Part shown: positions 6,737 through 60,124 of the stretch, piece by piece
Position numbering within the stretch: the first letter of the stretch is position 1
How the letters are laid out: each line of letters opens with the position of its first letter
NCBI RefSeq assembly: GCF_009914755.1
Contig: NC_060928.1
Source of the DNA: the human T2T-CHM13v2.0 reference genome, Homo sapiens
Direction: 5' to 3' (one strand)
DNA: 64,000 bases
Notes under the pieces: model-generated
Database searches by the model: none
What the model was told of the DNA's origin: nothing
The model's input: only the letters and a program-made list of their open reading frames with translations
Translations under genes and position numbers: made by a program

Positions 6737-6820
6737 CTTAATACAAACTCCCCCAGCCTTTAGAGGCTCAACTTGCATTTCTTCAATTGAAAGAGAACTG
6801 GCTGCCTGGCATGTGGTTGT
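6737..6820 (-). pseudogene. Relic ADH exon 2 (class VI/Adh6a-like), TTTCQAASSLSIEEMQVEPLKAGGVCIK
   Basis: Minus strand reads ctgcag|ACA ACC ACA TGC ... TGT ATT AAG|gtaaat. Both splice sites and phase 0/0 match ADH1A exon 2 ([34 protein letters not shown]). It is 84 nt versus 102 nt, an 18-nt in-frame deletion. Confidence 0.85.
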
Positions 6821-24263: not shown

Positions 24264-31083
<6,820 letters not shown>

Positions 31084-31659
31084 GCTGTCGATTTGTCATC
31101 TTTTTAACATATTCATCTCTCTCTTATTAAAAAGGAAAACATAGAAACCAACAACAAACTCCCCATTGCCCCACATCTTTCCAACTACCGTTGGGAGAGT
31201 CAAGAGGGATATTTACATGCTCTCTGAATTGAGGGTTGAGAGCTCTAGGCCAAATACTACCTCTAGTGTACTAGAAGTAGTAATACCACTTCTAGGCCAA
31301 ATTTGGGCTTCCATTGATGGGCCTTGAGAAATTGTAATATCCTGAAGTAATTGGGATTTTGTAATTTGACTAACTTATAAATTGACTTACAAATGGGAAT
31401 AATTTGAATTTGACTTTATAATTTGAGTCAAGGGCCAATATATATTTTGATTTTGTAATTGGGATTTTGTAGCTTCTGGAAGTTTCAAGAGATGTCTGGC
31501 TGTGACTGCAAAGCCAGCAATAAACCAGGGTCATATTGTTTAAGAAAAGACACAGTTTAAGAAAAGATCCTTTATACTCATTGCATCCTTTTCCTCACCT
31601 CCCTCTCACTTCTCCATGCTGCCATTCTATTAGACACCTCCAGCCCTTCATTGAAACAT

Positions 31660-31777
31660 CTGCTGACTCCTTCACTTTGGGCTTCTAGCCTCCAGAACTG
31701 TCAAAGAATAAATTTCTGTTGTTTTAAGCCACTCAGTCTATGGTAATTTGTTACAGTAGCACTAGAAAACAAATACA
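31660..31777 (+). mobile_element. MLT1 LTR 3' end
   Basis: ttctagcctccagaactg...aataaatttctgttgttttaagccactcagt...aaaacaaataca. Confidence 0.8.
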
Positions 31778-32051
31778 GAATCTGTGTTTATCATTCCCTG
31801 TATCTTCCCATTTCCTTGATTCTCTTCTCTCTCCTGACTTAGTGGGAGTGCTTCTTCTCCACTCTTTATGTGTCTACTCCACTGTCCTTTAGCTCTCTCT
31901 CCACATTACTAATGTGGTGCTTCTTGTTTATGTAACTCATTTGGAACTTAGCATGCACATCCTGTTTTGTTCTCTGTTTTATATGCAGAGACTGCTTTCT
32001 AGGTTAGATTTGAGTCAAGAAATGCAGAAGTCAAAATTGAAGAGTGAAGCT

Positions 32052-32263
32052 TTCTTCTTTTTTTTTCTTCTCTTTCTCTTCTCTCCCAAGTAGCTGGGAT
32101 TACAGGGGCATGCCACCATGCCTGGCTAATTTTTGCAATTTTAGTAGAGATGGGGTTTTTCCATGTTGGCCAGGCTGGTCTTTAACTCCTGACCTCAGGT
32201 GATCCACCCTCCTTGGCCTCCCAGAGTGCTGGGATTATGGGCATGACCCACCACGCCTAGCCG
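32052..32263 (-). mobile_element. Alu with an internal deletion
   Basis: T/C-rich tail joined directly to ctcccaagtagctgggattacagg...cctagcc. Confidence 0.85.
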
Positions 32264-32539
32264 GTTTTGAATCTTTACCTCAGCATCTTAATAGTTATTC
32301 TTAGGAATTAAATTCACTAATATATTTTTAGTCTTGATTTCAGTGCTGAATTACATTGGTGTTGATTCATATCAATTTCTATTTCACTGTTGTAAAGTAC
32401 TGCCAATCAAAACATTTTGATAGTGAAATTGACATACACTAAAATATGCTAAGACATATTCAATTGAAATGCATTTTTTTTACAATTCATTTTTATAATA
32501 TAGCCTTCAGTGTTTTCCCTGTCATATACATTGGAAATA

Positions 32540-32850
32540 ATAAAAATAATCATAAGTCTTATTTTATAGATGAAAAGACTGAGGCTTAGAATGAATGAGC
32601 AATTTTCCCATGATCACATGGCTGATAATTTACAGATCTGAGATAGAATTCAGCATTATCTCGATCCAAAGTTCTATTATTTCCTTTATCCCATGATCTG
32701 TTTAAACACTGTATTGAAAAGTTAAATAATAATGACAATGCTAATAGCTAACGTTTATTTATCTCTTACAATATGCCAAGCACCTTATGCTTTATTCTAT
32801 TCAATCATTTAATCCTCATAGTAACTCTATGAGTTATTATTAACTTTTGA
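32540..32850 (-). mobile_element. MIR fragments
   Basis: attttatagatgaaaagactgaggcttaga; tcatttaatcctcatagtaactctatgag. Confidence 0.75.
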
Positions 32851-34058
32851 AGGAGTAGAGGCCTTGTGAAGGCAAGCAGTTATGAAAGGGTTAAACAAAG
32901 ATTACTAATGTCTGATGCGGTTTATAGGTGGGGAGGATTTAGCACCTATTTATTCCTCTGTTCTCCTTATCAACATTTATGCTTAACCTTTTTTAGTTCT
33001 TTATTGATACTTTTTTCATCTAGGCTTTGGTGTGTTTAGTTTTTCTTTTTGCCAGTTATTTTTCTACCTCATTTGGAATTCACTAGTCAACTATAAATGC
33101 TAATCAGCAATGAATACTTAAATAGAGTTGGAATAAAACAATTGAAAACTGGTCACTTGTTAGCTATTTCTAACTACCTTGCTGTGCCTTTGTGTCTGCT
33201 TAAAAACTATAGGAACTCTTTGACTTGAATTGTTATTGCTATGTGATCAACTTTCAATACAACAAATATACTAGAAAGAGCTTCAAGGCTCTTGGAGCTT
33301 AGTAACATATTTTATTAATTGAATGTGTATAATCTATGTACGTGTGTAGCTATATATTTTATAAGTACCTGTCTACATGAAATTGAAGCATATGTTTTTA
33401 ATGCTAATAAGTTTTCAAAATTGTATTACTATTCACATGCTATAAGAACTATGATGACTTTTAAGAATGAGAATATTGCTATATATATATAAGTTCTGTG
33501 GAAATTTTATTAACTACGTTAAAATATGTGTAATAAAACTTTTTATACTTATTTGGCTTACTTAATTATGCCATTTCTAATGCTTTGATTTGTTGTGCTT
33601 TAGTAATTTGATATGAAATTTTGGAGAAATAATTCAAAGCCCTCTGATTCTAAGTCCTTATATAAAACCATTTGTCAGTTTGAACTTTCAGGTGTATAAG
33701 ACCTCAAACTATAGTTCTTGTAAATTTCAACTTCTTCATATAAAGATAAATTCATGATTAGAGACTTTAATAATCTTAGATTTACCAGGACAGTTATATT
33801 TAATTTATTCCATAAACATGCAATATTAATTTATTGCATAAACCCACAATAAAATTATTTTTATAGACACAGAAGAAAGATGATGATAAGAAGCCATACA
33901 TTGTAAGACATTTAGGTAAGCTTTTTTACCAAAATAAGTCAACATAATATGTGTTATTTCTTACTTAAATAAAAATATTAAGCCATTCTTTAACTCTGTA
34001 TTACTTTATCTGTTACACTTATGGAGAATATTATTCCACATGAAACTCTTGCATGTAC

Positions 34059-34076
34059 TTTTCCTGCTGCACATAT
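34059..34076 (-). pseudogene. Relic ADH exon 1 coding part, start codon lost
   Basis: ATA TGT GCA GCA GGA AAA|gtacat versus ADH1A ATG AGC ACA GCA GGA AAA|gtaagc. Confidence 0.85.
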
Positions 34077-35135
34077 GTGATTTAGTTCCTCTCTGCATTC
34101 CAGGAGATTTCAATGAATTATTTGCCTTGATCAGCAAAGCAGAAATATTACTTATTTCTACACATGTTATCTGGAGTCTTTAAACCACATACATCATGTA
34201 TTATTCAATCAACATCATTTCAGAATGAATGGGCACTAAATCAGCACTTGAAATCTGGACATTGTTTGCAAATTACCAATTTCAGATAATATCTTGATTA
34301 GATTAAATATTTCCCAATATATAAATTTTAATCTCTCTTTTTTTACTTGCTAGACTTTCTATGTGTCTTTCAGGCTCACTCAGGTCATTCACAGTTCTGT
34401 TTTTCCTTTGACTGGACTAAGCTCCAGCTTTGAATCCAAGTGGTGCAGTTAACAAGGAGGAGCAAGAAAGCAGGACAAATAAAGCAGAGAGCTAGTCACC
34501 AGAGGGATGTGTTTGATCCAGCACACCCCTTCTCTTCATAGCAGAGAATCGACACCCAATCAATCACAGCAAAGGTGCTCACTGTGCCTGACATTTCTAT
34601 TCTACCTAAAATTAATCAGCATTGACTGAGCATCTCCCTAGGTCAGGTACTAAGCTGGGTCCAGTGGAGTGGCAGTTATAAGATATGACCTCTACCCATG
34701 CCAGAAGCAGTATGGGGCTGTGGTGATGGCATGACTTTTGGGACCTGGCAGACCCTATTCCTTACTAGTTCTGTGTGCTTGCACTTATTATTTCATTGTT
34801 TTTTTTTTTCCTTAGTTTCTTCATCTGTAAGATGAAGAGGAATAACAGCACCATTTTAAAGGACTGTTTAGTGAATAAATGAAATAATTCATTTAGAGTA
34901 CTGATCACAGAGTTTAGCAGGTAGAAGCACCCTCCTAAATGTTAGCTACAATTATTATTCACAAAAGGAAGCTCACTGTCTCTGAAGAAAAGACACACAG
35001 GCAGTCAAGTCTACCTATCAGCCTGGCTGGGAAGTGTCCTATCACAGGGGTCAGTTAGTGCTTTAAGAGTAGAGACAGAGGTGCTATTTGGAATGAAGGA
35101 CTTGGGGAGGCATGGTAGAGGAACAGGCATAAAAC

Positions 35136-35578
35136 TTGTTTTGTCTTTCACAAAAACTGGATCATATAATACAAATTACTGTGTAGCTTGCTTTTTATAG
35201 TTAGTGATTTATGATATTAATACTGCCAGGTTTTAAGATATAATTTTTTTTTTAAGACAGGGTCTTTCTCTGTTGCCCAAGCTGGAGTGCAGTGCACAAT
35301 CATGGCTCCGTGCAACCTCTGCTTCCTGGGATCCAGTGATTCTCCCACCTCAGCTTCCCAAATAGCTGGGACTACAGTCACATGCCACTATGCCTGGCTA
35401 ATTTTGTACAGACGACTTTTTGCCATGCTGCCCAGGCTGGTCTTGAATTCCTGAGCTAAGTCAGTCCTCACACAGTGGCCTCCCAAAGTGATGGGATTAC
35501 AGGCATGAGCCACCACACCCAGCCCCCTGTTTTTAAAGAAAGATCCACTTAGCATTCAAAATAGGGAGTTATCTTTCC
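35136..35578. repeat. Duplicated segment copy A (old-L1-like flank, AluJ at ~35243-35524, flank)
   Basis: Same unique flanks on both sides of the Alu as 37980-38447. Confidence 0.9.
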
Positions 35579-37541
35579 ATCAGTAGCTCTTTTAGGGCAG
35601 GCCTGGTGGTGACAAAATCTCTCAGCGTTGGCTTTTCTGTAAAGTATTTTATTTCTCCTTCACTTATGAAGCTTAGTTTGGCTGGATATGAAATTCTGGG
35701 TTGAAAATTCTTTTCTTTAAGAACGTTGAATATTGGCCCCCACTCTCTTCTGGCTTGTAGAGTTTCTGCCGAGAGATCAGCTGTTAGTCTGATGGGCTTC
35801 CCTTTGTGGGTAACCTGACCGTTCTCTCTGGCTGCGCTTAACATTTTTTCCTTCATTTCAACTTTGGTGAATCTGACAATTATGTGTCTTGGAGTTGCTC
35901 TTCTCGAGGAGTATCTTTGTAGCATTCTCTGTATTTCCTGCATTTGAATGTTGGCCTGTCTTGCTAGGTTGGGGAAGTTCTCCTGGATAATATCCTGCAG
36001 CGTGTTTTCCAACTTGGTTCCATTCTCCCTGTCACTTTCAGGTACACCAATCAGATGTAGATTTGGTCTTTTCACATAGTCCCATATTTCTTGGAGGCTT
36101 TGTTCATTTCTTTTTACTCTTTTTTCATTAAACTTGTCTTCTCACTTCATTTCATTCATTTGATCTTCCATCACTGATACCCTTTCTTCCAGTTGATCAA
36201 ATTGGCTACTGAAGCTTGTGCATCCGTCATGTAGTTCTCATGCCATGGGTTTCAGCTCCATCAGGTCATTTAAGGCCTTCTCTATAGTCTTTATTCTAGT
36301 TAGCCATTCATCTAATCTTTTTTCAAGGTTTTTAGCTTCTTTGTGATGGGTTCAAACATCCTCCTTTAGCTTGGAGAAATTTGTTGTTACAGATCATCTG
36401 AAACCGTCTTCTCTCATCTTGTCAAAGTCATTCTCCATCCAGCTTTGTTCCATTGCGGGTGAGGAGCTCTGTTCCTTTGGAGGAGAAGAGGCATTCTGAT
36501 TTTTAGAATTTTCAGCTTTTCTGCTCTGGTTTCTCCCCATCTTTGTGGTTTTATCTACCTTTGGTCTTTTGTCATGGTGACATACAGATGGGGTTTTGGT
36601 GTGGATGTCCTTTCTGTCTGTTAGTTTTCCTTCTAACAGTAAGGACCCTCAGCTGCAGGTCTGTTGGACTTTGCCGGAGGTCCACTCCAGACCCTGTTTG
36701 CTTGGGTATCACCAGTGGAGGCTGCAGAACAGCGAATATTGCAGAACAGGAAAGTTGCTGCCTGATTCTTCCTCTGGAAGCTTCATCTCAGAGGGGCACA
36801 TGGCTGTATGAGGTGTCAGTCGGCTCCTACTGGGAGGTGTCTCCCAGATAGGCTACTCAGGGGTCAGGTACCCACTTGAGGAGGCAGTCTCTCTGTTCTC
36901 AGATCTCAAACTCCATGCTGGGAGAACCACTACTCTCTTCAAAGCTATCAGACAGGGACGTTTAAGTCTGCAGAAGTTTCTGCTGCCTTTTGTTCAGCTA
37001 TGTCCAGCCCCCAGAGGTGGAGTCTACAGAGTCAGGCAGGGCTCCTTGAGCTGCGTTGGGCTCCACCCAGTTCAAGCTCCCTGGCCACTTTGTTTACCTA
37101 CTCAAGCCTCAGCAATGGCAGGTGCCCCTCCCCCAGCCTCGCTGCTGCCTTGCAGTTCGATCTCAGACTGTTGTGCTAGCAATGAGTGAGGCTCCGTTGG
37201 CATGGGACCCTCCAAGCCATGTGCGGGATATAATCTCCTGGTGTGCCATTTGCTAAGACCATTGGAAAAGCGCAGTATTAGGGTGGGAGTGTCCCGATTT
37301 TCCAGGTACCATCTGTCACAGCTTCCCTTGGCTAGGAAAGGGAATTCCCCAACCCCTTGTGCTTCCCTGGTGAGGCGATGCCCCACCCTGCTCCATGGGC
37401 TGCACCCACTGTCTGACAAGCCCCAGTGAGATGAACCCGGTACCTCAGTTGGAAATGCAGAAATCACCCATTTTCTGCGTCACTCACGCTGCGAGCTGTA
37501 GATTGGAGCTGTTCCTATTTGGCCATCTTGGAACCTCCTCC
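35575..37541 (-). mobile_element. L1PA 5'UTR and ORF1 only; ORF2 and 3' end missing
   Basis: ORF1 peptide ends ...TTRPALKELL and then becomes non-L1. 5' end ggccatcttggaacctcctcc. Confidence 0.95.
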
Positions 37542-37979
37542 AGAAGTTTTTTAAAGTAATTAAAATCTCAATTATAGTACCTTTAAATTATTTCACAATT
37601 ACATATACATGTTGGCAGCTCGAATCTTTCATTACAATTTTTTATAAGGTAAAAAAGTAATAAAATCATAAATCTCATCATAACTGACAATCTCGATTTC
37701 AGGTTTCTATAAATTGTTAAAGAATGTGATTGGCATTGTTGAAGAAATTATTAAATAAATTTGATTTTCCTGCCTCTATTCAAGACTTTCAAGAATAGTA
37801 TGTAAAGAAATTACATAATGTTAGTTTGAAACAGTTATGGTTCAAAAATTAACTTTAGTTCTTCAACTCTTTTCAGATCCAGGTTTCTGAGGTGAACAGC
37901 CTGTTTTGTACATTTCTATATCTTTCTCTATGCTCATATCGACCTATATACCAATAAATAAGAATTTTAATTTGTTTCA

Positions 37980-38447
<468 letters not shown>

Positions 38448-39985: not shown

Positions 39986-40875
39986 TGTCATGTTGTGTTT
40001 GTATTCCACCAAAATTCACATGTTGAACTCTAATTCCCAATGTGATGGTATCTGGAGGTGGGGCTTTTGGGAGGTGATTCCACCCTCATGAATGGGGTTA
40101 GTGCCCTTATAAGAAGAGACACAAGGTGATCATTCAGTCAGTCATGTGAAGATACAGAGGGAAGGCATCTGTCTACAGGCCAGGAAGTTGGCCTTCACCA
40201 GCCACCAGTTCTTTTGGCCCCTTGGTCTTGTACTCTCCAGCCTCCATAATGGTGAGAAATAAATGTCTGTTGTTTAAGCCACCCAGTCTGTTATGTTTAG
40301 TATAGCAGCCCAAACTTATTGAAACATGATGGTAGACAGAATTCTAAGCTGACTCCCAAGATTCCAGCTCCCTGGTATACATGCCTTATATGATCCCTTA
40401 TGCTTAAATGAGTATGAAACCTTTGAATATGATGGGAAAGCCACTCCATGGATTAGGTTGTGTTACAGAACAAGTGCTGATGGAATAGTCACATTTGTGA
40501 TTATCTGACATTATATAAGACTCTGTTGTGTTAGACTTGAGGGGTTTGTGAGTCAATATGTTGGGAGCATGAGAGGGTGTGCTGAGGGAGCCATGCTGAG
40601 ATTGTTCCCAGGTTGACGGTCAGCAAAAAACCAGAAGCCTCAGTCCCACAGCTACTGGGAACTGAATTCTGGCAACAGCAATGTGAGCCAGAAAGAGGGC
40701 CCCAAGCTCCAGAAAGGAACACAGGCCAGCTAATACTGTTGACACTCCAGTTGGAGCAACTAGTTCAGCTGTTTCCAGATTTTTGACCTGTAGAAACTGT
40801 GAGAGAATAAATGGTGTTCATTCAAGCCAATAATTGTGTGGTAGTTTGTTACTCAGAAATAGAAAGCTAACATAC
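39986..40875 (+). mobile_element. Two adjacent MLT1-type MaLR LTRs
   Basis: caaaattcacatgttgaa...gcccttataagaagagacac...aataaatgtctgttgtttaagccacccagt. The second starts tgatggtagacagaattctaag and ends gaaatagaaagctaaca. Confidence 0.75.
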
Positions 40876-41567: not shown

Positions 41568-41912
41568 TGCTATGGCTTGAATGTCTTTCTCCTTCAAAAC
41601 TCATGTTGAAATTTGGTTGCCATTGTAATAGTATTAAGAGGTGGAACAACTTAAGAAAGAAGTAGGCCAGGAGGCTCTACCATTATGGGTGGGGTTAATT
41701 ACATTGCAAAAAGATGAATTCAGCCTCTTTTTGTTCTCTCTCTTATCTTCTACAATGTGATGATGTAGCAAGAAGCCTCTCAACACATGTTGGCACCTCC
41801 ATATTGAAATTCCCAGCGTCCAGAACTGTGAACTAATAAATTTCTTCATTGTAAATCACCCAGTCTCAGTCTCAGGCATTCTGTTATAGCAGCACAAAAC
41901 GGAATAAGTCAA
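41568..41912 (+). mobile_element. MaLR LTR (MSTC/D-like)
   Basis: tgctatggcttgaatgt...caaaactcatgttgaaattt...ctgttatagcagcacaaaacgga. Confidence 0.75.
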
Positions 41913-54476: not shown

Positions 54477-55147
54477 CTAGAAAAGCAAACAGAGAGATGG
54501 CACCAGTGTTCTCCCACGCTTGCAGTCAGATATTGTGTCATTTCATCTTTGTACATACAACATCTAATCCCATGTCTGGTACCTAACAAGTGCTCTATAG
54601 AAATGATCACCTCTGATTTATAAAGAGAAAAAAATATATTTTAAAAAAGCAATAACATAAGGAAAGATAAACAGTTAACTATAACAACACACTGAGATAA
54701 AATGGAATATATTCATTAAGGCCATCCTTATGTTGTTGTTGTTTTTCTCCAAAGTTGTTTAATCCTGACATTTCCTAATGCTATGCTGAAAATGTCTCTT
54801 CACCCACAATTATTGGCTGGTACATCAAATTCTAAGTCACCTTCGTTTTGCTGACAGAGTCAGTGTCTGTTCACATAAAATACACTGTTTTCTTTCTCAA
54901 TTTTCTGCTTAGGCCAAAAGGATCTGAGTTTATAAGGATATATTTACCTTCCTGCCTGGGATGACATCTCTTTCTCTCTCTTTTCCTATTCTCCTCTTTT
55001 AATTTTCTCTCTCCACCACTTCTGTGTGTTACTTGTTCCAACACCCATTTGCAACTTAGCTTTGAGAGGCTGTACTGTTATCTGATCTATGTGTAGAGAC
55101 TCCTTCCAGCTTTGATTTGAGCCCCAAATTACAAAGGTTAGAGTTGG

Positions 55148-55178
<31 letters not shown>

Positions 55179-55185
55179 TGTGTGT
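55148..55185. repeat. (TG)n microsatellite in intron 1
   Basis: Read directly. Confidence 0.95.
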
Positions 55186-55624
55186 ATACACTCAGACCTA
55201 CACATACATATTTCAAAATTGGAGACACTGTGTGTTTGAATTTCTAGCTAGCAGATCTTATCCATAGATGTTCTTAAAAATAAAAGATGTACACATAATT
55301 TCCAGTGCTTGGCAGTGAACTGTAATATCTGTCTTCATTGTGGTTAAGCATGTACAATTCACAAAACTCTTTCCAGAGAGAATCAACAAAATTGCAATTA
55401 TGATAAAAATTCAATTGAAATTTGTTCTTCTGATAATTCGTTGTCATTATTTATTTGTCAAATTATTCAACTTTGCAGGATGTTCAACATGATCAATGCC
55501 AAATAAATATCAGAATACTTGGAAGTAAAGTACTAATAGTAGGAGTTCCTGATTATCAGGTGCCTATGATGTGACAGGCACATTGTGGCCTGTGCTCGGT
55601 GAGTTATTTGCATTATATTTATTT

Positions 55625-56090
55625 ATAAAATTTATTTTTAATTTCAATAGTTTTTGGGGTGCAGGTGTTTTCTGGTTACCTGGGTAAGTTCTTTAGTGGT
55701 GATTTCTGAGATTTTGGTGCACCCTTCACTCAAGCAGTGTACATTGCACCCAATATGTAGTCTTTTATCCCTCACCTCCCCTTTCAACCTTCCCCCTCGA
55801 GTTCCCAAAGTTCATGATATCATTCTCATGCCTTTGCATCCTCATAGCCTAACTCTCTCTTATAAATGAGAACATATGATGTTTGGTTTTCCATTTCTGA
55901 ATTACTTAGAATAATGGTCTCCAGCTCCATCCAAGTTGCTGCAAAGGCCATTATTTTATTTTATTCTGTTTAATGGCTGAGTAGTATTCCATGGTATATG
56001 CACACCATATTTTCTTTATCTACTCGTTTGTCGATGGGCATTTAGGTCAGTTCTGTATTTTGTAATTGCAAATTGTGCTGCTATAAACAA
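55625..56090 (-). mobile_element. L1PB-like 3' end
   Basis: ttttaatttcaatagttttggggtgcaggtg...taagttctttagtggtgatttctgagatttt. Confidence 0.85.
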
Positions 56091-57709
56091 CATGCATTAT
56101 TTTAAAATCTCATAAGGATGCTACCAGGACAGTACTATTGAATTATTGGCTTTATTTTACAGCTGAAATAATTGAGGATCCATTGACTCAGTGATTAACT
56201 AATTTCTCTAAAGTCTCAAAGCTGGCTTTCCAGAGAATAAAGATGAATCTAGCCTTATGTTTTCACTACTCGGTGTCAGTAAAAAGTTAGCAAAAAGTTA
56301 AATAGCAACAATAATAATAGTGGCTAATAGTTATTGACTTATTTCTACATCCCAAATACAATTTTAAGTTCTTTATAGTATTCATTTATTGAATTATCAC
56401 AACACAACTACTTTATGAAATAGATGTTAGTATTGTCACTATTTAGCATTTGAGGAAAATATAATGCAGGATGTATAAACATAAATGAAATGCTGACAAC
56501 AAGCTAAGTTATTGATGTTGTGCCCAAGAGGGGAGGCAATTGTCTATTTCATCAGTTATTATTTTCATTAATATGATTGGTTTATACTTTTGCTGTAGGA
56601 ACTCATTATTTCTTTTAAGTTGAGTTTGGTAAATTTAATTTTTTTGCTAATTGTTTTCTATGTGGAATGTACATATTAATCAGTAATGAATGAAAGTAAA
56701 GTGAGGTGGAATAAGAACAGTAACAATGGGCCACCCATGTGATTTCCAACCAGTCTTATTGATATGAACCTGTTTTGTCACAGAGTGTATAGAGAAGCCT
56801 CAGAGCCTTTAAACTGAGTTATCATAGTGAGATATTTTACTGTGTAATACACTCCTAACACAAAAAAGGACTGGAAATAGTTGCACAAATTTTTGTAATT
56901 AGGCAATTAAAATATCAATTGATTATATTGTATTACCACATGTATTTTTGTGCACCTATAAACACATTGAACAATTAAGATATTTATGGAAGGCAAAACC
57001 AAATATCTGTGTTCCTAGTGCTAATAAGTGATTCAAATTGTATTATTAATTTTCTGTAAAACCATATTGACTTTTATATGGGGAAGATACTGTTCCATAG
57101 GATTACTCTGGAAATTGCCTGAATTGTGTCCTACTAGACCCTTTTAAATCAGAATTTGAATGTTGATGTTGTCTTGATTAACCTTGATGATTCTAATGCT
57201 GTGAGACCAATGAGCATTTTGTAAACTATTTTATGTTAAGGTTAAAAGGGTATTTCAAAGTCTTCTAAATCAAATCCTCTCATAAAACTTTCATCAGACT
57301 TAACTTTCTTGTATTCACAAAAAATATAAATACAAATAGTAATACATTTAAATTATGGTACCTTAATATAAAGAAAACTTCTTGATGAAAGACATTTCTA
57401 ACTTTGGCTTTACAAATTAATCATGATTAGCTTGGAATAAACTATCGCTTTACCGCAAATGTCTTTAATGTGGGAAATAAACACTTCATAGATACAGATT
57501 CTATACATTCTTTTTGAAGGTATTTAGGAATAGCTTATTTCCACTGTAGTTCAGTATACATTACATATTATAGCATATATTGCATATCATATTTCAGTGT
57601 ATCATTTCTAATTTAGATATGAATTTTAAATGATTCATCAAATACTGTATTACTTTCTTTGTTATATTGATGAGAATATAGTTCCAACAGTAATATATTT
57701 TTTGCTTAC

Positions 57710-57727
57710 TTTTCCTGCTGTGCTCAT
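57710..57727 (-). CDS. ADH1A: ADH1A exon 1 coding part (MSTAGK)
   Basis: aacATG AGC ACA GCA GGA AAA|gtaagc. The nine exons total 1128 nt, i.e. 375 aa plus stop. Confidence 0.98.
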
Positions 57728-57799
57728 GTTGATTCTGTCTTCTCTGCAGACCAGGAGACTGGTGAGTCCTTGTGGATTTCTTCCCTGCTCAAGTGCATA

Positions 57800-58010
57800 A
57801 AGCAGGTGTATTGCATAGGTATTTATTTTTTTTTTTTGCTTGAATAACACCCAATTCCAGTTCCACACATGATCTAGGTCTTTAAGCCACACCCATTAGA
57901 TTATTCACAGACTGTCAAATCATAAAGAAGAGGGCAATGAACCAGCAATCAATACATTGATTTTTCCAATTTCAAATAAGATTTTGTTTTCATTAGGTTA
58001 AATATTAAGT
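57800..58010 (-). promoter_or_regulatory. ADH1A: ADH1A proximal promoter
   Basis: TATA-like AAATAAATA at ~57820 next to an A tract; E-box CACATG 57866-57871; GGGTGTGGC GT-box 57886-57894; HNF1-like GGTTAAATATTAAG 57996-58009. Confidence 0.8.
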
Positions 58011-58558
58011 TAAAGTGATAAAGCTTAATCATTTTCTCTTCTCCTCACTTTATTCCTCATCTGTCAAATTTCTTGTTTCTCCTCTCTTAGTCCCACAGTG
58101 GTCATTCAAAGTTCTGTTTTCCCTTTATCTGCATTAAGCTCCAGCTTTGAATCCAAACGGTGCAGTTAGGAAGGAGGAAGAGCAAAGAAGCCGGGCAAAT
58201 AAAGATGACAGCCAGGAGCCAGAGGAATGTGTTTGGCTCAGGACTCCCCTTCTCTTCATAGAGAATCAGATACTCAATCACAGCAAAGGTGCTCACCCTG
58301 CTAAGCATTTTTGCTCCACCTCAAACCAATCAGCATTGACTGAGCCCCTCTGTGTGTCAGGCACTAAGCTGGGTCCAGTGGATGGCAGTGATAAATAAGA
58401 CATTACCTCTATCTGTACCAGAGGCAGTATGGGGCAAAGGTGATGGCATGCTTTTTGGGACCTGGCAGACCCTATTCCTTACTAGCTCTGTGTACTGGCA
58501 CTTATTATTTCACTTTTTTTTTTGCCTTAGTTTGTTTACCTGTAAGATGAAGAAGAAT

Positions 58559-58653
58559 AATACCATTTTAAATGACTGTTTAGTGAATATAGCACCATTT
58601 TAAAGGACTGTTTAGTGAATATAGCACCATTTTAAAGGACTGTTTAGTGAATA
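58559..58653. repeat. 32-bp tandem repeat, three copies
   Basis: Unit agcaccattttaaaggactgtttagtgaatat. Confidence 0.95.
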
Positions 58654-60124
58654 AATGATATAATCTATGTAAAGCACTCATCATAGAGTTTAACAGGTAG
58701 GAGCACCCTACTAAATGCTAGCTACAATTATTATTCATAAAAGGAAGCTCACAGTCTATGGGGAAAAGATACACAGGCAGCCAAGTCTACATATCAGCCT
58801 GGCTGGGAAGTGCGCTATCACAGGGATCAGTTAGTGCTTTGGGGACAGAGACAGAGGTACTATTCAGAATGAAGGCCTCAGGGGAGGCATTATAGATGAA
58901 CAGGTATTTGAGGTAGATTTTAAATAATTGTGGGAAATTCAGACAAATCCTCACTGGATCATTTCTATTGCCCTTTGATCAATGTAACTAGTCTACACAT
59001 GGCTGTCCAAGATTATGAGTTTAATTTTTCTTTTATCCACACTTGGAGGCATTGCACAGGCAGCTGTTTAATCAGATGCAGTCTGTCAACATGAACATGT
59101 CAACATAAAGGACATATCTCTCTAGAATTGTAAAGGGAACATTTCAGTAAGCTTTAACTACGTAGGCACTGAGACTCACACCAAGACTGAGAAACATTCA
59201 CCCAATAGAGAAGCAAGGAAGGTCCTACGATTTCAGTTGCTTCTGAAATGTATCAAGGTAAGAATATAGCCCCAGATCTGATGTTCAGCATTCAAGGCTT
59301 CGTAATATGGCTTCAACCTTCTCATCTATCTACTCCTCCCCATTCTCCAATACAGGGCGTATGTGCTTTAGAAGCTTGTATCTCCCTGGTCCCCCAAAGA
59401 GGAATCTATTTAACATTCAAGCCCTTGCTCATCATGCTCTTTCTCTTCTTTTCTGTCCCTCTGGCCCATTCAAATCCTACCCAAAATTTGAGATGCAGGA
59501 CAAGGTCACCCTTGTGGAGGTATATTAACTCCATCTCACTGTTGTGCTTTATGTCTCTGCATCCCTGTCATGCTAGCATCTCTCCTGTGGTTTTGGGTCT
59601 GTTCCCTTTTGTCGCCCTCTATATTTAGTGTAGAGATCAGTCTCCTAATTTCTACTGGAAATTTCTAGTCAGGGATGTTCTTAAATTTCATTTATATCAT
59701 CAACTATACCTAGCTCCATGTATACTGTAGGTGTTTAATGAGTGATTGTTGAATTCTTATGCTCATTTATGTTAGGACAGGCACTGTTCTATGAGCAGTC
59801 CCATAATCCAGAAGATCCGGTGTCTCCTCTTTAAGGTTTTACAGATTAGCAGTGGGATTGGCTGTGGTCAGGTAGACAAGACAGAGAACCCTCCTGTGAA
59901 GCAGGAAGTGGTCGTGCCAGGAGAAGAGTTCAACGTGGAATTCAAAGGAGGAAGATCCTACTCCATCTTTTCATTATGGATTCTCAGCTCTTAACTCAAT
60001 GTCTGGCACAGAGTGAGTGCTCAGATATTTGTTGATTAAATTAAAGAAATGACTTCTACTTTTAGGGTGAGGAAACCTTGAAAGAAAGGTATTTTATTAA
60101 GATGTATCAAGAAAAATGGGTCAT

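What the first reader, a model, noticed from the sequence alone, without database searches (positions are those of the whole stretch)
31778..35130. Unnamed decayed copy of the ADH1 promoter, exon 1 and intron 1
Seen: colinear anchors with the ADH1A 5' region include catttg(g/c)aacttagc (~31938 vs ~55046), taatcag(c/t)aatgaat (~33101 vs ~56677), ttctaatgct (~33575 vs ~57191), tcatgattag (~33752 vs ~57421), taagctccagctttgaatccaa (~34418 vs ~58135), gggacctggcagaccctattccttactag (~34740 vs ~58457) and tatcagcctggctgggaagtg (~35016 vs ~58792). Exon 1 reads ATA TGT GCA GCA GGA AAA|gtacat: the start codon is lost, the donor is weakened, and there is an out-of-frame ATG at 34074. The TATA region is shortened and the GT-box and HNF1 sites have decayed. 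Inference: the 5' stump of an extra class I-related gene. It is either a separate relic or the first exon of the gene that owns the exon at 6737, which would make that gene a class I-promoter/class VI-body chimera.
Basis: partly seen in the sequence, partly recalled or inferred. Interest (0 to 1): 0.75.

Follow-up and report, generated by a model that had tools for sequence, protein, structure and literature searches.

The report
Dead ADH gene stump beside ADH1A

Summary
Window 31840-35130 (minus strand) is colinear with the promoter, exon 1 and about 85% of intron 1 of ADH1A, ADH1B and ADH1C.

It is not a uniformly decayed ADH1 copy but a mosaic. The distal promoter block (34383-35130) is as close to ADH1A/1B as they are to each other (K2P 0.14-0.15). 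The core promoter, exon 1 and intron 1 are about four times more diverged (K2P 0.42-0.66, against 0.11-0.18 among ADH1A/B/C).

Directly upstream lie a 446-bp fourth copy of the ADH1 3' flank, with the same Alu, and a 3'-truncated L1. I read these as the scar of the fourth ADH1 paralogue that the literature calls entirely deleted in humans. The stump lies downstream of that scar, so it belonged to the next, older gene.

ADH1C's far upstream differs from that of ADH1A/1B by the same old distance (K2P 0.52-0.60). This fits unequal crossing-over between ADH1 and this older neighbour having started the primate ADH1 expansion. The neighbour is most likely the class VI ADH gene lost in primates. That is inferred from position and literature and was not testable here.

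The stump is non-functional DNA, of moderate, specialist interest.

The parts
34383..35130 (-). Distal promoter block B, about -0.3 to -1.1 kb from the relic exon 1. Its similarity to the same block of ADH1A and ADH1B is of ADH1-expansion age.
   Evidence: Identity is 77-79% to ADH1A/1B and 76% to ADH1C. In 413 reliable columns (34641-35130), relic-1A p is 0.13, relic-1B 0.13 and 1A-1B 0.11, while ADH1C is at 0.26-0.28 to all three. The ML branch of the relic is 0.083, against 0.079 and 0.092 for 1A and 1B.
34136..34382 (-). Old core/proximal promoter relic. The TATA box and the adjacent factor site are missing.
   Evidence: ADH1A 57820-57852 aligns to a gap at relic ~34151. With exon 1 (297 columns), relic-ADH1 p is 0.32-0.35, against 0.14-0.16 among the ADH1 genes.
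34059..34135 (-). Exon 1 relic. The 18-nt coding part is 34059-34076 and reads ATA TGT GCA GCA GGA AAA. The donor is GTACAT at 34058-34053.
   Evidence: It aligns to ADH1A exon 1 (57710-57798): 46 of 89 positions identical with a 12-base gap. In the coding part 14 of 18 are identical, and ATG has become ATA.
31840..34058 (-). Old intron 1 relic, matching ADH1A 54954-57709 (about 85% of intron 1). It carries a relic-specific Alu-like fragment at 32083-32276.
   Evidence: nhmmer gives colinear hits with E from 1e-11 to 1e-25. In 1186 reliable columns p is 0.41-0.43 (K2P 0.62-0.66), against 0.10-0.14 among the ADH1 genes. A reversed-sequence control gives p 0.53-0.55. The Alu-like copies are seen.
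31642..31779 (+). Old interspersed repeat that abuts the end of the intron-1 homology. I recall it as the 3' end of a MaLR/MLT1-type LTR; this was not classified by any tool.
   Evidence: Copies lie at 41774-41899, 40211-40312, 98605-98728 and 96380-96485, and in ADH6 and ADH7 introns. Sequence read.
35133..35578 (-). F': a fourth copy of a segment of the ADH1 3' flank, with the same Alu (35244-35535) at the same site. I read it as the remnant of a lost fourth ADH1 unit.
   Evidence: It is colinear with the flanks of ADH1A (37980-38446), ADH1B (70760-71170 plus 71504-71529) and ADH1C (94240-94506 plus 95056-95210). In 421 columns, K2P from F' to the others is 0.24; 1A-1B is 0.15 and 1A-1C is 0.23. 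The junction with block B is sharp, at 35130|35131.
35575..37542 (-). The 5'-terminal ~2 kb of an L1. Its 5' end lies at 37542, next to the end of the ADH1A 3' flank at 37547. The 3' ~4.5 kb is missing, which marks a deletion.
   Evidence: Genomic copies are 89-91% identical over q445-2412. It aligns to the 5' part (28772-31077) of the full-length L1 at 24270-31087. The terminal sequence was read.
6737..6820 (-). Exon 2 relic that may belong to the same dead gene: 84 nt, open frame, AG acceptor and GT donor kept, 18-nt deletion.
   Evidence: tblastn E 1.8-2.5. nhmmer against exon 2 of ADH1A/B/C gives E from 8e-6 to 1e-4. Identity is 56 of 84 to ADH1A/1B and 52-55 of 84 to ADH1C, ADH4, ADH5, ADH6 and ADH7.

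Best explanation
The segment is the dead 5' end of the gene that used to lie immediately downstream of the class I ADH gene. It comprises a distal promoter block, the core promoter, exon 1 and the first ~2.2 kb of intron 1. That gene was an old tandem paralogue of ADH1, most likely the class VI ADH gene that primates lost.

The stump now marks the downstream edge of the ADH1C-ADH1B-ADH1A array. It does nothing today:
- The start codon is ATA.
- The TATA region is deleted.
- The splice donor is weakened.
- The intron breaks off at ~31840.
- The nearest possible exon 2 is 25 kb away, behind L1 insertions.

Proposed history (inferred):
1. An old tandem duplication made ADH1 and this neighbour. 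Each had its own homologous upstream region.
2. In early anthropoid primates, unequal crossing-over between the two 5' regions, at about -0.3 to -0.6 kb, produced the extra ADH1 copies. ADH1B, ADH1A and a fourth copy therefore carry the neighbour's upstream DNA. ADH1C keeps the original ADH1 upstream, and the stump keeps the parental arrangement.
3. The neighbour's body was lost.
4. In the lineage to humans, a deletion that also cut an L1 removed the fourth ADH1 unit, leaving 446 bp of its 3' flank next to the stump.

Shown here: the homology, the lesions, the two age classes, the fourth flank copy and the truncated L1. Inferred: the crossing-over mechanism, the class VI identity and the link to the published fourth paralogue.
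For: 1. Real and unique homology.

2. Two age classes within one colinear alignment.
- Intron 1, 1186 columns: relic-ADH1 K2P 0.62-0.66, against 0.11-0.15 among ADH1A/B/C.
- Exon 1 plus core promoter, 297 columns: 0.42-0.49, against 0.15-0.18.
- Distal block 34641-35130, 413 columns: 0.14-0.15, against 0.12 for 1A-1B.
- The ML branch of the relic is 0.56 in the proximal part and 0.083 in the distal part.

3. Structural markers agree.
- The ~0.5-kb L1 fragment shared by intron 1 of ADH1A/B/C has no counterpart in the stump. There the flanking homologous blocks, 32374-32502 and 32549-33156, are 46 bp apart.
- F' shares an Alu insertion with all three ADH1 3' flanks.

4. A mirror pattern in the living genes. 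Upstream of block B, ADH1C differs from ADH1A/1B by K2P 0.52-0.60 (300 and 571 columns), while 1A-1B differ by 0.13-0.15. The raw distance is the same as for stump versus ADH1 (p 0.40 in both; reversed-sequence controls give 0.53-0.56). In -300..+90, ADH1C is only 0.18-0.19 from 1A/1B.

5. F' and the 3'-truncated L1 lie between the stump and the ADH1A flank. The stump is therefore downstream of a lost ADH1 unit, not part of it.

6. Carrigan et al. 2012 (PMC3409193, passages read) place a fourth paralogue (Mac_ADH1.0 / Cal_ADH1.1) between the class V gene and the ADH1A orthologue, and say it was lost in humans.

7. [quoted passage not shown]

8. The 5' regions of ADH4, ADH5, ADH6 and ADH7 share nothing with the stump except repeats.
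Against: - No non-human mammalian genome could be searched. Orthology to a class VI 5' region, and presence of the stump downstream of ADH1.0 in macaque or marmoset, are untested.
- Within block B, ADH1C is less diverged from the other copies (K2P 0.22-0.28 in 34383-34640; 0.33-0.37 in 34641-35130) than the 0.5-0.6 seen further upstream. The crossover model needs constraint or later conversion to explain this.
- The ML tree of block B groups relic with ADH1A against ADH1B with ADH1C (200 bootstrap replicates, support 100, internal branch 0.021). The simplest scenario predicts 1A with 1B.
- The ~5.2 kb of unique DNA that lies between the 3' flank and block B in the ADH1A and ADH1B units is missing at the F'|B junction. 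A second deletion must be assumed.
- At p ~0.40 the alignments are not far above the noise floor of 0.53-0.56, so the old distances are rough.
- Class IV also derives from ADH1, yet it shows no non-coding similarity. If class VI is equally old, the alignable intron is unexpected.
- The exon-2 relic is about equally far from all human classes and does not identify the class.
Confidence: 0.55

Rival explanations
1. The stump is the 5' end of an old ADH1-like tandem duplicate that is not class VI. It could be an otherwise unrecorded early-mammalian paralogue, or a partial duplicate that never was a complete gene. The array-edge history is otherwise as in the best explanation.
For: The old part aligns to ADH1 non-coding DNA, while no other human class does. 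That could mean it is younger than the class-level splits. The exon-2 relic cannot be assigned to a class or tied to the stump.
Against: Papers place class VI genes between Adh1 and Adh4 in rodents (PMC8369952 passage; the exact order next to Adh1 is recalled). They say primates lost class VI. A second unknown gene at the same spot is less economical.
Confidence: 0.2
2. The stump is an old gene's 5' end, but block B resembles ADH1A/1B because gene conversion copied ADH1 sequence into the stump. On this reading the ADH1A/1B upstream regions are native ADH1 DNA.
For: Gene conversion is frequent among ADH1 paralogues (Carrigan 2012, passages read). The tract would end where homology ends, at 35130. 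The signal within block B is mixed.
Against: It leaves unexplained why ADH1C is the outlier in block B (78 singleton differences, against 16-24 for the others). It also leaves unexplained why ADH1C differs from ADH1A/1B by K2P 0.52-0.60 over several kb upstream, while its proximal promoter differs by only 0.18-0.19.
Confidence: 0.12
3. The stump is what is left of the fourth anthropoid ADH1 paralogue itself (the human orthologue of Mac_ADH1.0 / Cal_ADH1.1), decayed after its body was deleted.
For: The location, between ADH6 and ADH1A, matches the published position. Mac_ADH1.0 was reported to have no recognisable exon 1. Block B and F' are of expansion age. The relic is nearest to ADH1A, then 1B, then 1C, the same order as Mac_ADH1.0.
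Against: The published intron distances of Mac_ADH1.0 to human ADH1A/B/C are 0.134-0.155. The stump's intron 1 is at 0.62-0.66. It lacks the L1 fragment common to all three ADH1 introns 1. The extra 3'-flank copy F' lies upstream of the stump, so the lost unit ended before the stump begins.
Confidence: 0.07
4. The similarity is chance, or comes from shared dispersed repeats.
For: Parts of the surrounding DNA are Alu, L1 and LTR copies.
Against: E values reach 0 for an 818-column alignment. Seven of 7 anchors are exact. Only the ADH1 loci match genome-wide. The match includes exon 1.
Confidence: 0.01

Closest known systems
Fourth anthropoid ADH1 paralogue (Mac_ADH1.0 pseudogene / Cal_ADH1.1; Carrigan et al. 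2012, PMC3409193)
   Same: Same interval of the cluster, between the class V gene and the ADH1A orthologue. It is class-I related, and is dead or lost in catarrhines. The 446-bp flank copy F' and the cut L1 beside the stump fit its reported loss in humans.
   Different: The stump's exon 1 and intron 1 are about four times more diverged from ADH1A/B/C than Mac_ADH1.0's introns are reported to be. The stump lies downstream of the remnant 3' flank. The paper says the human copy was 'deleted entirely'; here a 446-bp piece of its flank appears to survive.
Class VI ADH genes of non-primate mammals (e.g. rodent Adh6a/Adh6b)
   Same: By literature they are derived from amniote ADH1, absent from primates, and located between Adh1 and Adh4. 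The stump is an old ADH1 relative at the corresponding place, with a possible exon 2 that is equidistant from all human classes.
   Different: No class VI sequence was available, so no residue or orthology test was possible. Only 6 + 28 codons of the dead gene survive.
Mouse Adh6-ps1 (class V pseudogene lacking several exons) and other unprocessed pseudogene fragments in tandem clusters
   Same: It is an unprocessed relic of a cluster member that keeps intron and promoter sequence and has lost exons by deletion.
   Different: Here only the 5' end survives. It sits exactly at the edge of a younger tandem array, and that array appears to have copied the stump's upstream DNA.

Membership tests
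Unprocessed pseudogene fragment of the vertebrate MDR-ADH cluster (class-I-like 5' end) | Colinear homology to the promoter, exon 1 and intron 1 of a parent gene (intron retained) | tested here: met
   The chain runs from 31840 to 35131 against ADH1A 54954-58908 and the ADH1B/1C equivalents.
Unprocessed pseudogene fragment of the vertebrate MDR-ADH cluster (class-I-like 5' end) | Disabling lesions or missing parts | tested here: met
   ATG has become ATA, the TATA region is deleted and the donor is GTACAT. No exons 2-9 within 25 kb.
Fourth anthropoid ADH1 paralogue (ADH1.0 clade) | Lies between the class V gene (human ADH6) and ADH1A | tested here: met
   Hub annotation, plus coordinates and the published position.
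Fourth anthropoid ADH1 paralogue (ADH1.0 clade) | Intron divergence from ADH1A/B/C at expansion level (published 0.134-0.155) | tested here: not met
   Intron 1 K2P is 0.62-0.66 over 1186 columns. The best BLAST blocks are still only 69-73% identical.
Fourth anthropoid ADH1 paralogue (ADH1.0 clade) | Carries insertions that predate the expansion (the L1 fragment in intron 1 common to ADH1A/B/C) | tested here: not met
   The fragment is at ADH1A ~55627-56205, ADH1B ~86835-87136 and ADH1C ~117032-117570. It is absent from the stump.
Fourth anthropoid ADH1 paralogue (ADH1.0 clade) | Orthology to Mac_ADH1.0 / Cal_ADH1.1 sequence | not testable with these tools
   No macaque or marmoset genome is held. 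The supplements with per-intron tables were not readable.
Class VI ADH gene | Position next to ADH1 on the class V side of the cluster | tested here: inconclusive
   The stump's position is shown. The position of class VI in other mammals comes from paper passages and from recall of the mouse order.
Class VI ADH gene | Class-specific residues or an HMM match | not testable with these tools
   Only exon 1 and a possible exon 2 survive. The published diagnostic residues start at position 49. No class VI sequence was at hand.
Class VI ADH gene | Orthology of promoter and intron 1 to class VI genes of non-primates | not testable with these tools
   No non-human mammalian genome is held.
Dispersed repeat (MIR/L2/LTR) shared by chance | Many copies genome-wide | tested here: not met
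   only the ADH1 loci match, apart from two ~85-bp matches.

The most novel reading that the evidence does not exclude
ADH1A and ADH1B (and the lost fourth copy) are promoter hybrids. Everything upstream of about -0.3 to -0.6 kb, at least 5.5 kb, descends from the upstream region of the neighbouring class VI gene. It was captured when unequal crossing-over between the class I and class VI 5' ends started the primate ADH1 expansion. Only ADH1C keeps the ancestral class I upstream region. The stump is the surviving parental class VI promoter. It gives a physical link between the loss of class VI and the ADH1 duplications, and an internal outgroup for rooting the ADH1 tree.
Probability: 0.35. Interest if true: 0.6.

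Novelty: new member of a known kind. Interest (0 to 1): 0.42.

Why it matters
The history of the primate ADH1 triplication, including its root, the role of gene conversion and the fate of a fourth copy, has been argued over for decades.

- The stump, the extra flank copy and the cut L1 give fixed landmarks for the edge of the array and for the loss of the fourth copy.
- The mirrored old/young pattern suggests that ADH1A/1B and ADH1C have upstream regulatory DNA of different origin. That could bear on their different expression.
- It would also give the first physical trace of the class VI gene in a primate genome.

All of this can be tested with existing primate and mammalian assemblies. The stump itself has no sign of function, so the interest is evolutionary and specialist.

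Tried and rejected
- Treating the relic as one evenly aged copy: a single 1003-column distance hid the mosaic. Binned analysis replaced it.
- Remnant of ADH1.0's own 5' end: rejected on divergence, the missing L1 fragment and the position of F'.
- Similarity to the 5' regions of ADH4, ADH5, ADH6 and ADH7: only Alu and LTR copies match.
- Further ADH exon relics between ADH6 and the stump: tblastn with the ADH1A protein and nhmmer with ADH1A/B/C pieces found only the exon-2 relic. A weak exon-8-like hit at 6621-6562 (E 16) was taken as chance.
- A search of the same interval with an ADH6 protein was not done (see the field kept for the operators), so class-V-like relics could have been missed.
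- The global MAFFT alignment of 32042-32700 was too messy to read indels from. Local hits were used instead.
- My first exon-2 coordinates were off by 9 bases and were corrected.
- Reading class VI sequences or per-intron tables from supplements failed: the files were unreadable or held no hits.
- Oota et al. 2007 is not held.
- Five literature searches returned no paper whose title or abstract start points to the stump, the flank remnant or hybrid ADH1A/1B upstream regions. Of the listed papers, only passages of five were read. Subscription journals are mostly outside that library, including Cheung et al. 1999 and Höög & Östberg 2011, which I know only through citing passages.
Full report
**Observation.**
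- BLASTN of 30000-37000 against 40001-64000 gives a colinear same-strand chain. Its best block is 34383-35130 vs 58100-58907 (77.0% of 818 columns, E 0). A second block, 33950-34107 vs 57598-57758 (72.4% of 163), spans ADH1A exon 1 and the start of intron 1.
- With looser scoring and with nhmmer, the chain runs almost without break from 31840 to 35131. It matches ADH1A 54954-58908 and the equivalent parts of ADH1B and ADH1C.
- ADH1A is on the minus strand, so the relic is too.
- Its exon 1 reads ATA TGT GCA GCA GGA AAA|GTACAT. ADH1A reads ATG AGC ACA GCA GGA AAA|GTAAGC. The out-of-frame ATG is at 34074.
- The annotated TATA box and the neighbouring binding site of ADH1A fall in a gap of the relic. 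Two other annotated sites keep 5 of 12 and 24 of 38 bases.
- I take the names GT box, C/EBP and HNF1 for these sites from memory, not from a call.

**Not a repeat.** A search of the whole genome with 34383-35130 found 7 places: itself, the upstream regions of ADH1A (77%), ADH1B (79%) and ADH1C (76% and 72%, split by an insertion), and two ~85-bp matches elsewhere.
- A search with 33200-34382 found only itself and ADH1A exon 1/intron 1.

**The relic is a mosaic.** In a four-way alignment I kept only columns lying in ungapped runs of 15 or more. Distances then fall into two classes.

| Region | Columns | Relic to ADH1 genes | Among ADH1A/B/C |
|---|---|---|---|
| Intron 1 (31840-34058) | 1186 | p 0.41-0.43 (K2P 0.62-0.66) | p 0.10-0.14 |
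| Exon 1 + core promoter (34059-34382) | 297 | p 0.32-0.35 | p 0.14-0.16 |
| Distal block 34641-35130 | 413 | 0.13 to 1A, 0.13 to 1B | 1A-1B 0.11; ADH1C 0.26-0.28 to all three |

- In 34383-34640 (185 columns) all four copies are about equally far apart, and the relic has the fewest private changes (8, against 7-24).
- Sliding windows place the switch at about 34340-34450.
- ML branch lengths say the same: the relic's branch is 0.56 in the proximal part and 0.083 in the distal part.
- A control with the relic reversed gives p 0.53-0.55. The value of 0.40 is therefore real homology, but it is not far above the floor and the old distances are rough.
- The best local BLAST blocks in the old part are 69-73% identical.

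**Independent markers.** Intron 1 of ADH1A, ADH1B and ADH1C shares an L1 3' fragment of about 0.5 kb. Its best genomic copies are 80-83% identical.
- In the stump, the blocks that flank that position (32374-32502 and 32549-33156) are 46 bp apart and no L1 is there.
- The old part therefore did not come from the same round of copying as ADH1A/B/C, unless it lost the fragment later.

**A fourth flank copy and a deletion scar.** Directly upstream of the distal block, 35133-35578 is a fourth copy of a segment of the ADH1 3' flank.
- It corresponds to ADH1A 37980-38446, ADH1B 70760-71170 plus 71504-71529, and ADH1C 94240-94506 plus 95056-95210.
- It includes the same Alu at the same site with the same flanks.
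- Over 421 columns it is K2P 0.24 from each of the others. 1A-1B is 0.15 and 1A-1C is 0.23.
- Its junction with the distal block is sharp, at 35130|35131.
- About 5.2 kb of mostly unique DNA separates flank and block in the ADH1A and ADH1B units. That DNA is missing here.
- On the other side, 35575-37542 is the 5'-terminal ~2 kb of an L1. Its 5' end sits 4 bp from the end of the ADH1A 3' flank.
- L1 copies are normally truncated at the 5' end. A copy that keeps the 5' end and lacks the 3' 4.5 kb implies a later deletion (established L1 biology).
- Its best genomic copies are 89-91% identical. By recalled calibrations that is roughly the time of the ape/Old World monkey split.

**Link to the literature.** I read passages and one section of Carrigan et al. 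2012.
- They infer four ADH1 paralogues before the catarrhine-platyrrhine split.
- The fourth (Mac_ADH1.0 pseudogene, Cal_ADH1.1) lies between the class V gene and the ADH1A orthologue. [quoted passage not shown]
- The extra flank copy and the cut L1 sit exactly there, and I read them as the scar of that loss.
- The stump lies downstream of the scar. Its intron is far more diverged than the published Mac_ADH1.0 intron distances to human ADH1A/B/C (0.134-0.155). It is therefore not that gene's 5' end.

**A mirror pattern in the living genes.** nhmmer shows that ADH1C's upstream region is colinear with the upstream regions of ADH1A/1B well beyond the distal block.
- The distance there is old: 1C to 1A/1B is p 0.36-0.40, K2P 0.52-0.60, over 300 and 571 columns. 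1A-1B in the same columns is K2P 0.13-0.15.
- In -300..+90, ADH1C is only 0.18-0.19 from the others.
- Going upstream, ADH1C turns from young to old relative to ADH1A/1B. The stump turns from old to young in the same few hundred bases.
- The two old comparisons have the same raw distance (p 0.40 in both).

**Proposed history.** The simplest account involves two events.
- An old tandem pair existed: ADH1 and a downstream neighbour, each with a homologous upstream region.
- Later, unequal crossing-over between their 5' ends put the neighbour's upstream DNA in front of the new ADH1 copies.
- ADH1C and the stump are then the two parental arrangements, and ADH1A and ADH1B are the recombinants.
- Any alternative in which the stump is the recombinant also needs ADH1C to be one.

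**Which gene was the neighbour?** Evidence from papers:
- Passages in two papers say class VI is absent from primates.
- One of them adds that class VI derives from amniote ADH1 and was lost in primates 'simultaneously or close to ADH1 duplications' (PMC4028059).
- A third paper places the rodent Adh6a/Adh6b/Adh6-ps1 genes between Adh1 and Adh4. That Adh6a is the immediate neighbour of Adh1 is my recollection.

Evidence from the sequence:
- The stump shares nothing but repeats with the 5' regions of ADH4, ADH5, ADH6 and ADH7.
- The only other ADH relic between ADH6 and the stump is an exon 2 at 6737-6820. It is 84 nt, open, with its splice sites kept and an 18-nt deletion.
- It is 56 of 84 identical to ADH1A/1B and 52-55 of 84 to the other human ADH genes. 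It is therefore not a young ADH1 exon, and its class cannot be told.
- At least 76% of the 25 kb between it and the stump has other copies in the cluster, mainly L1. These include a full-length L1 at 24270-31087.
- The last ~480 bp of intron 1 was found next to neither piece.

Class VI is my favoured identity, at about 0.55. It is inferred, not shown.

**Points that do not fit neatly.**
- Within the distal block, ADH1C is less diverged (K2P 0.22-0.37) than further upstream (0.52-0.60).
- The ML tree of the block pairs the relic with ADH1A (support 100 of 200 replicates, internal branch 0.021) rather than pairing 1A with 1B.
- A second deletion is needed to explain the missing 5.2 kb at the F'|B junction.
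- Later conversion or constraint on this promoter region could account for the first two points, but I did not test that.

**Function.** I see no basis for present function. There is no start codon, no TATA region, a weakened donor, a truncated intron, and no annotated element in the hub table. Its value is as a historical marker.

**Novelty.** Five full-text searches returned no paper whose title or abstract start points to the stump, the flank remnant or a hybrid origin of the ADH1A/1B upstream regions. Of the listed papers I read passages of five only.
- Cheung et al. 1999 reported that the 5' flank evolves differently from the gene body. I know this only through a passage in Carrigan et al..
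- Key older papers are not in the library.

**Verdict.** This is an unannotated relic of a known kind, with a moderately interesting evolutionary reading that existing assemblies can test.

Noticed in passing
window 35133-37542: A 446-bp fourth copy of the ADH1 3' flank, with the same Alu as the other three, lies next to an L1 that keeps its 5' end but lacks its 3' 4.5 kb. This is probably the scar of the fourth ADH1 paralogue, which the literature says is entirely deleted in humans.
   Followed up: yes
window 58908-60121 and 66283-70333; L008/L017 (window 89215-93955); L010/L019 (window 123557-126308): The far upstream regions of ADH1A and ADH1B are K2P 0.13-0.15 apart. ADH1C's colinear upstream is K2P 0.52-0.60 from both, although its proximal promoter is only 0.18-0.19 away. 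The three genes appear to have upstream DNA of two different ages.
   Followed up: yes
window 6737-6820 (minus): An ADH exon 2 relic: 84 nt, open frame, AG and GT splice sites kept, 18-nt deletion. It is 52-56 of 84 identical to exon 2 of every human ADH gene. A weak exon-8-like match sits about 100 bp downstream at 6621-6562 (E 16).
   Followed up: partly
window 55627-56205; ADH1B ~86835-87136; ADH1C ~117032-117570: An L1 3' fragment shared by intron 1 of all three ADH1 genes. It was inserted before their duplication and is absent from the stump. Best genomic copies are 80-83% identical.
   Followed up: partly
window 31840-34058 vs ADH1A/B/C intron 1: With the stump as outgroup, 21 sites group stump+ADH1A against ADH1B+ADH1C, compared with 7 and 9 for the other two splits. 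In intron 1 this would place ADH1A outside ADH1B+ADH1C, unlike the usual tree.
   Followed up: no
window 24270-31087 (minus): A full-length L1 of about 6.8 kb in gene orientation, with a T-run at 24270-24284 and its 5' end at ~31087. Best genomic copies are 84-86% identical. Several further L1s fill the ADH6-ADH1A interval.
   Followed up: partly
L012 (window -10120 to -8859) vs L009 (window 114871-116130): A 1.26-kb stretch upstream of ADH6 is 96% identical to a stretch inside ADH1C intron 1. That is far closer than the other copies of the same L1-like element (86-89%).
   Followed up: no
L009/L010 (window 120281-123374): A ~3.1-kb insertion splits the distal promoter block of ADH1C. Its nature was not examined.
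   Followed up: no
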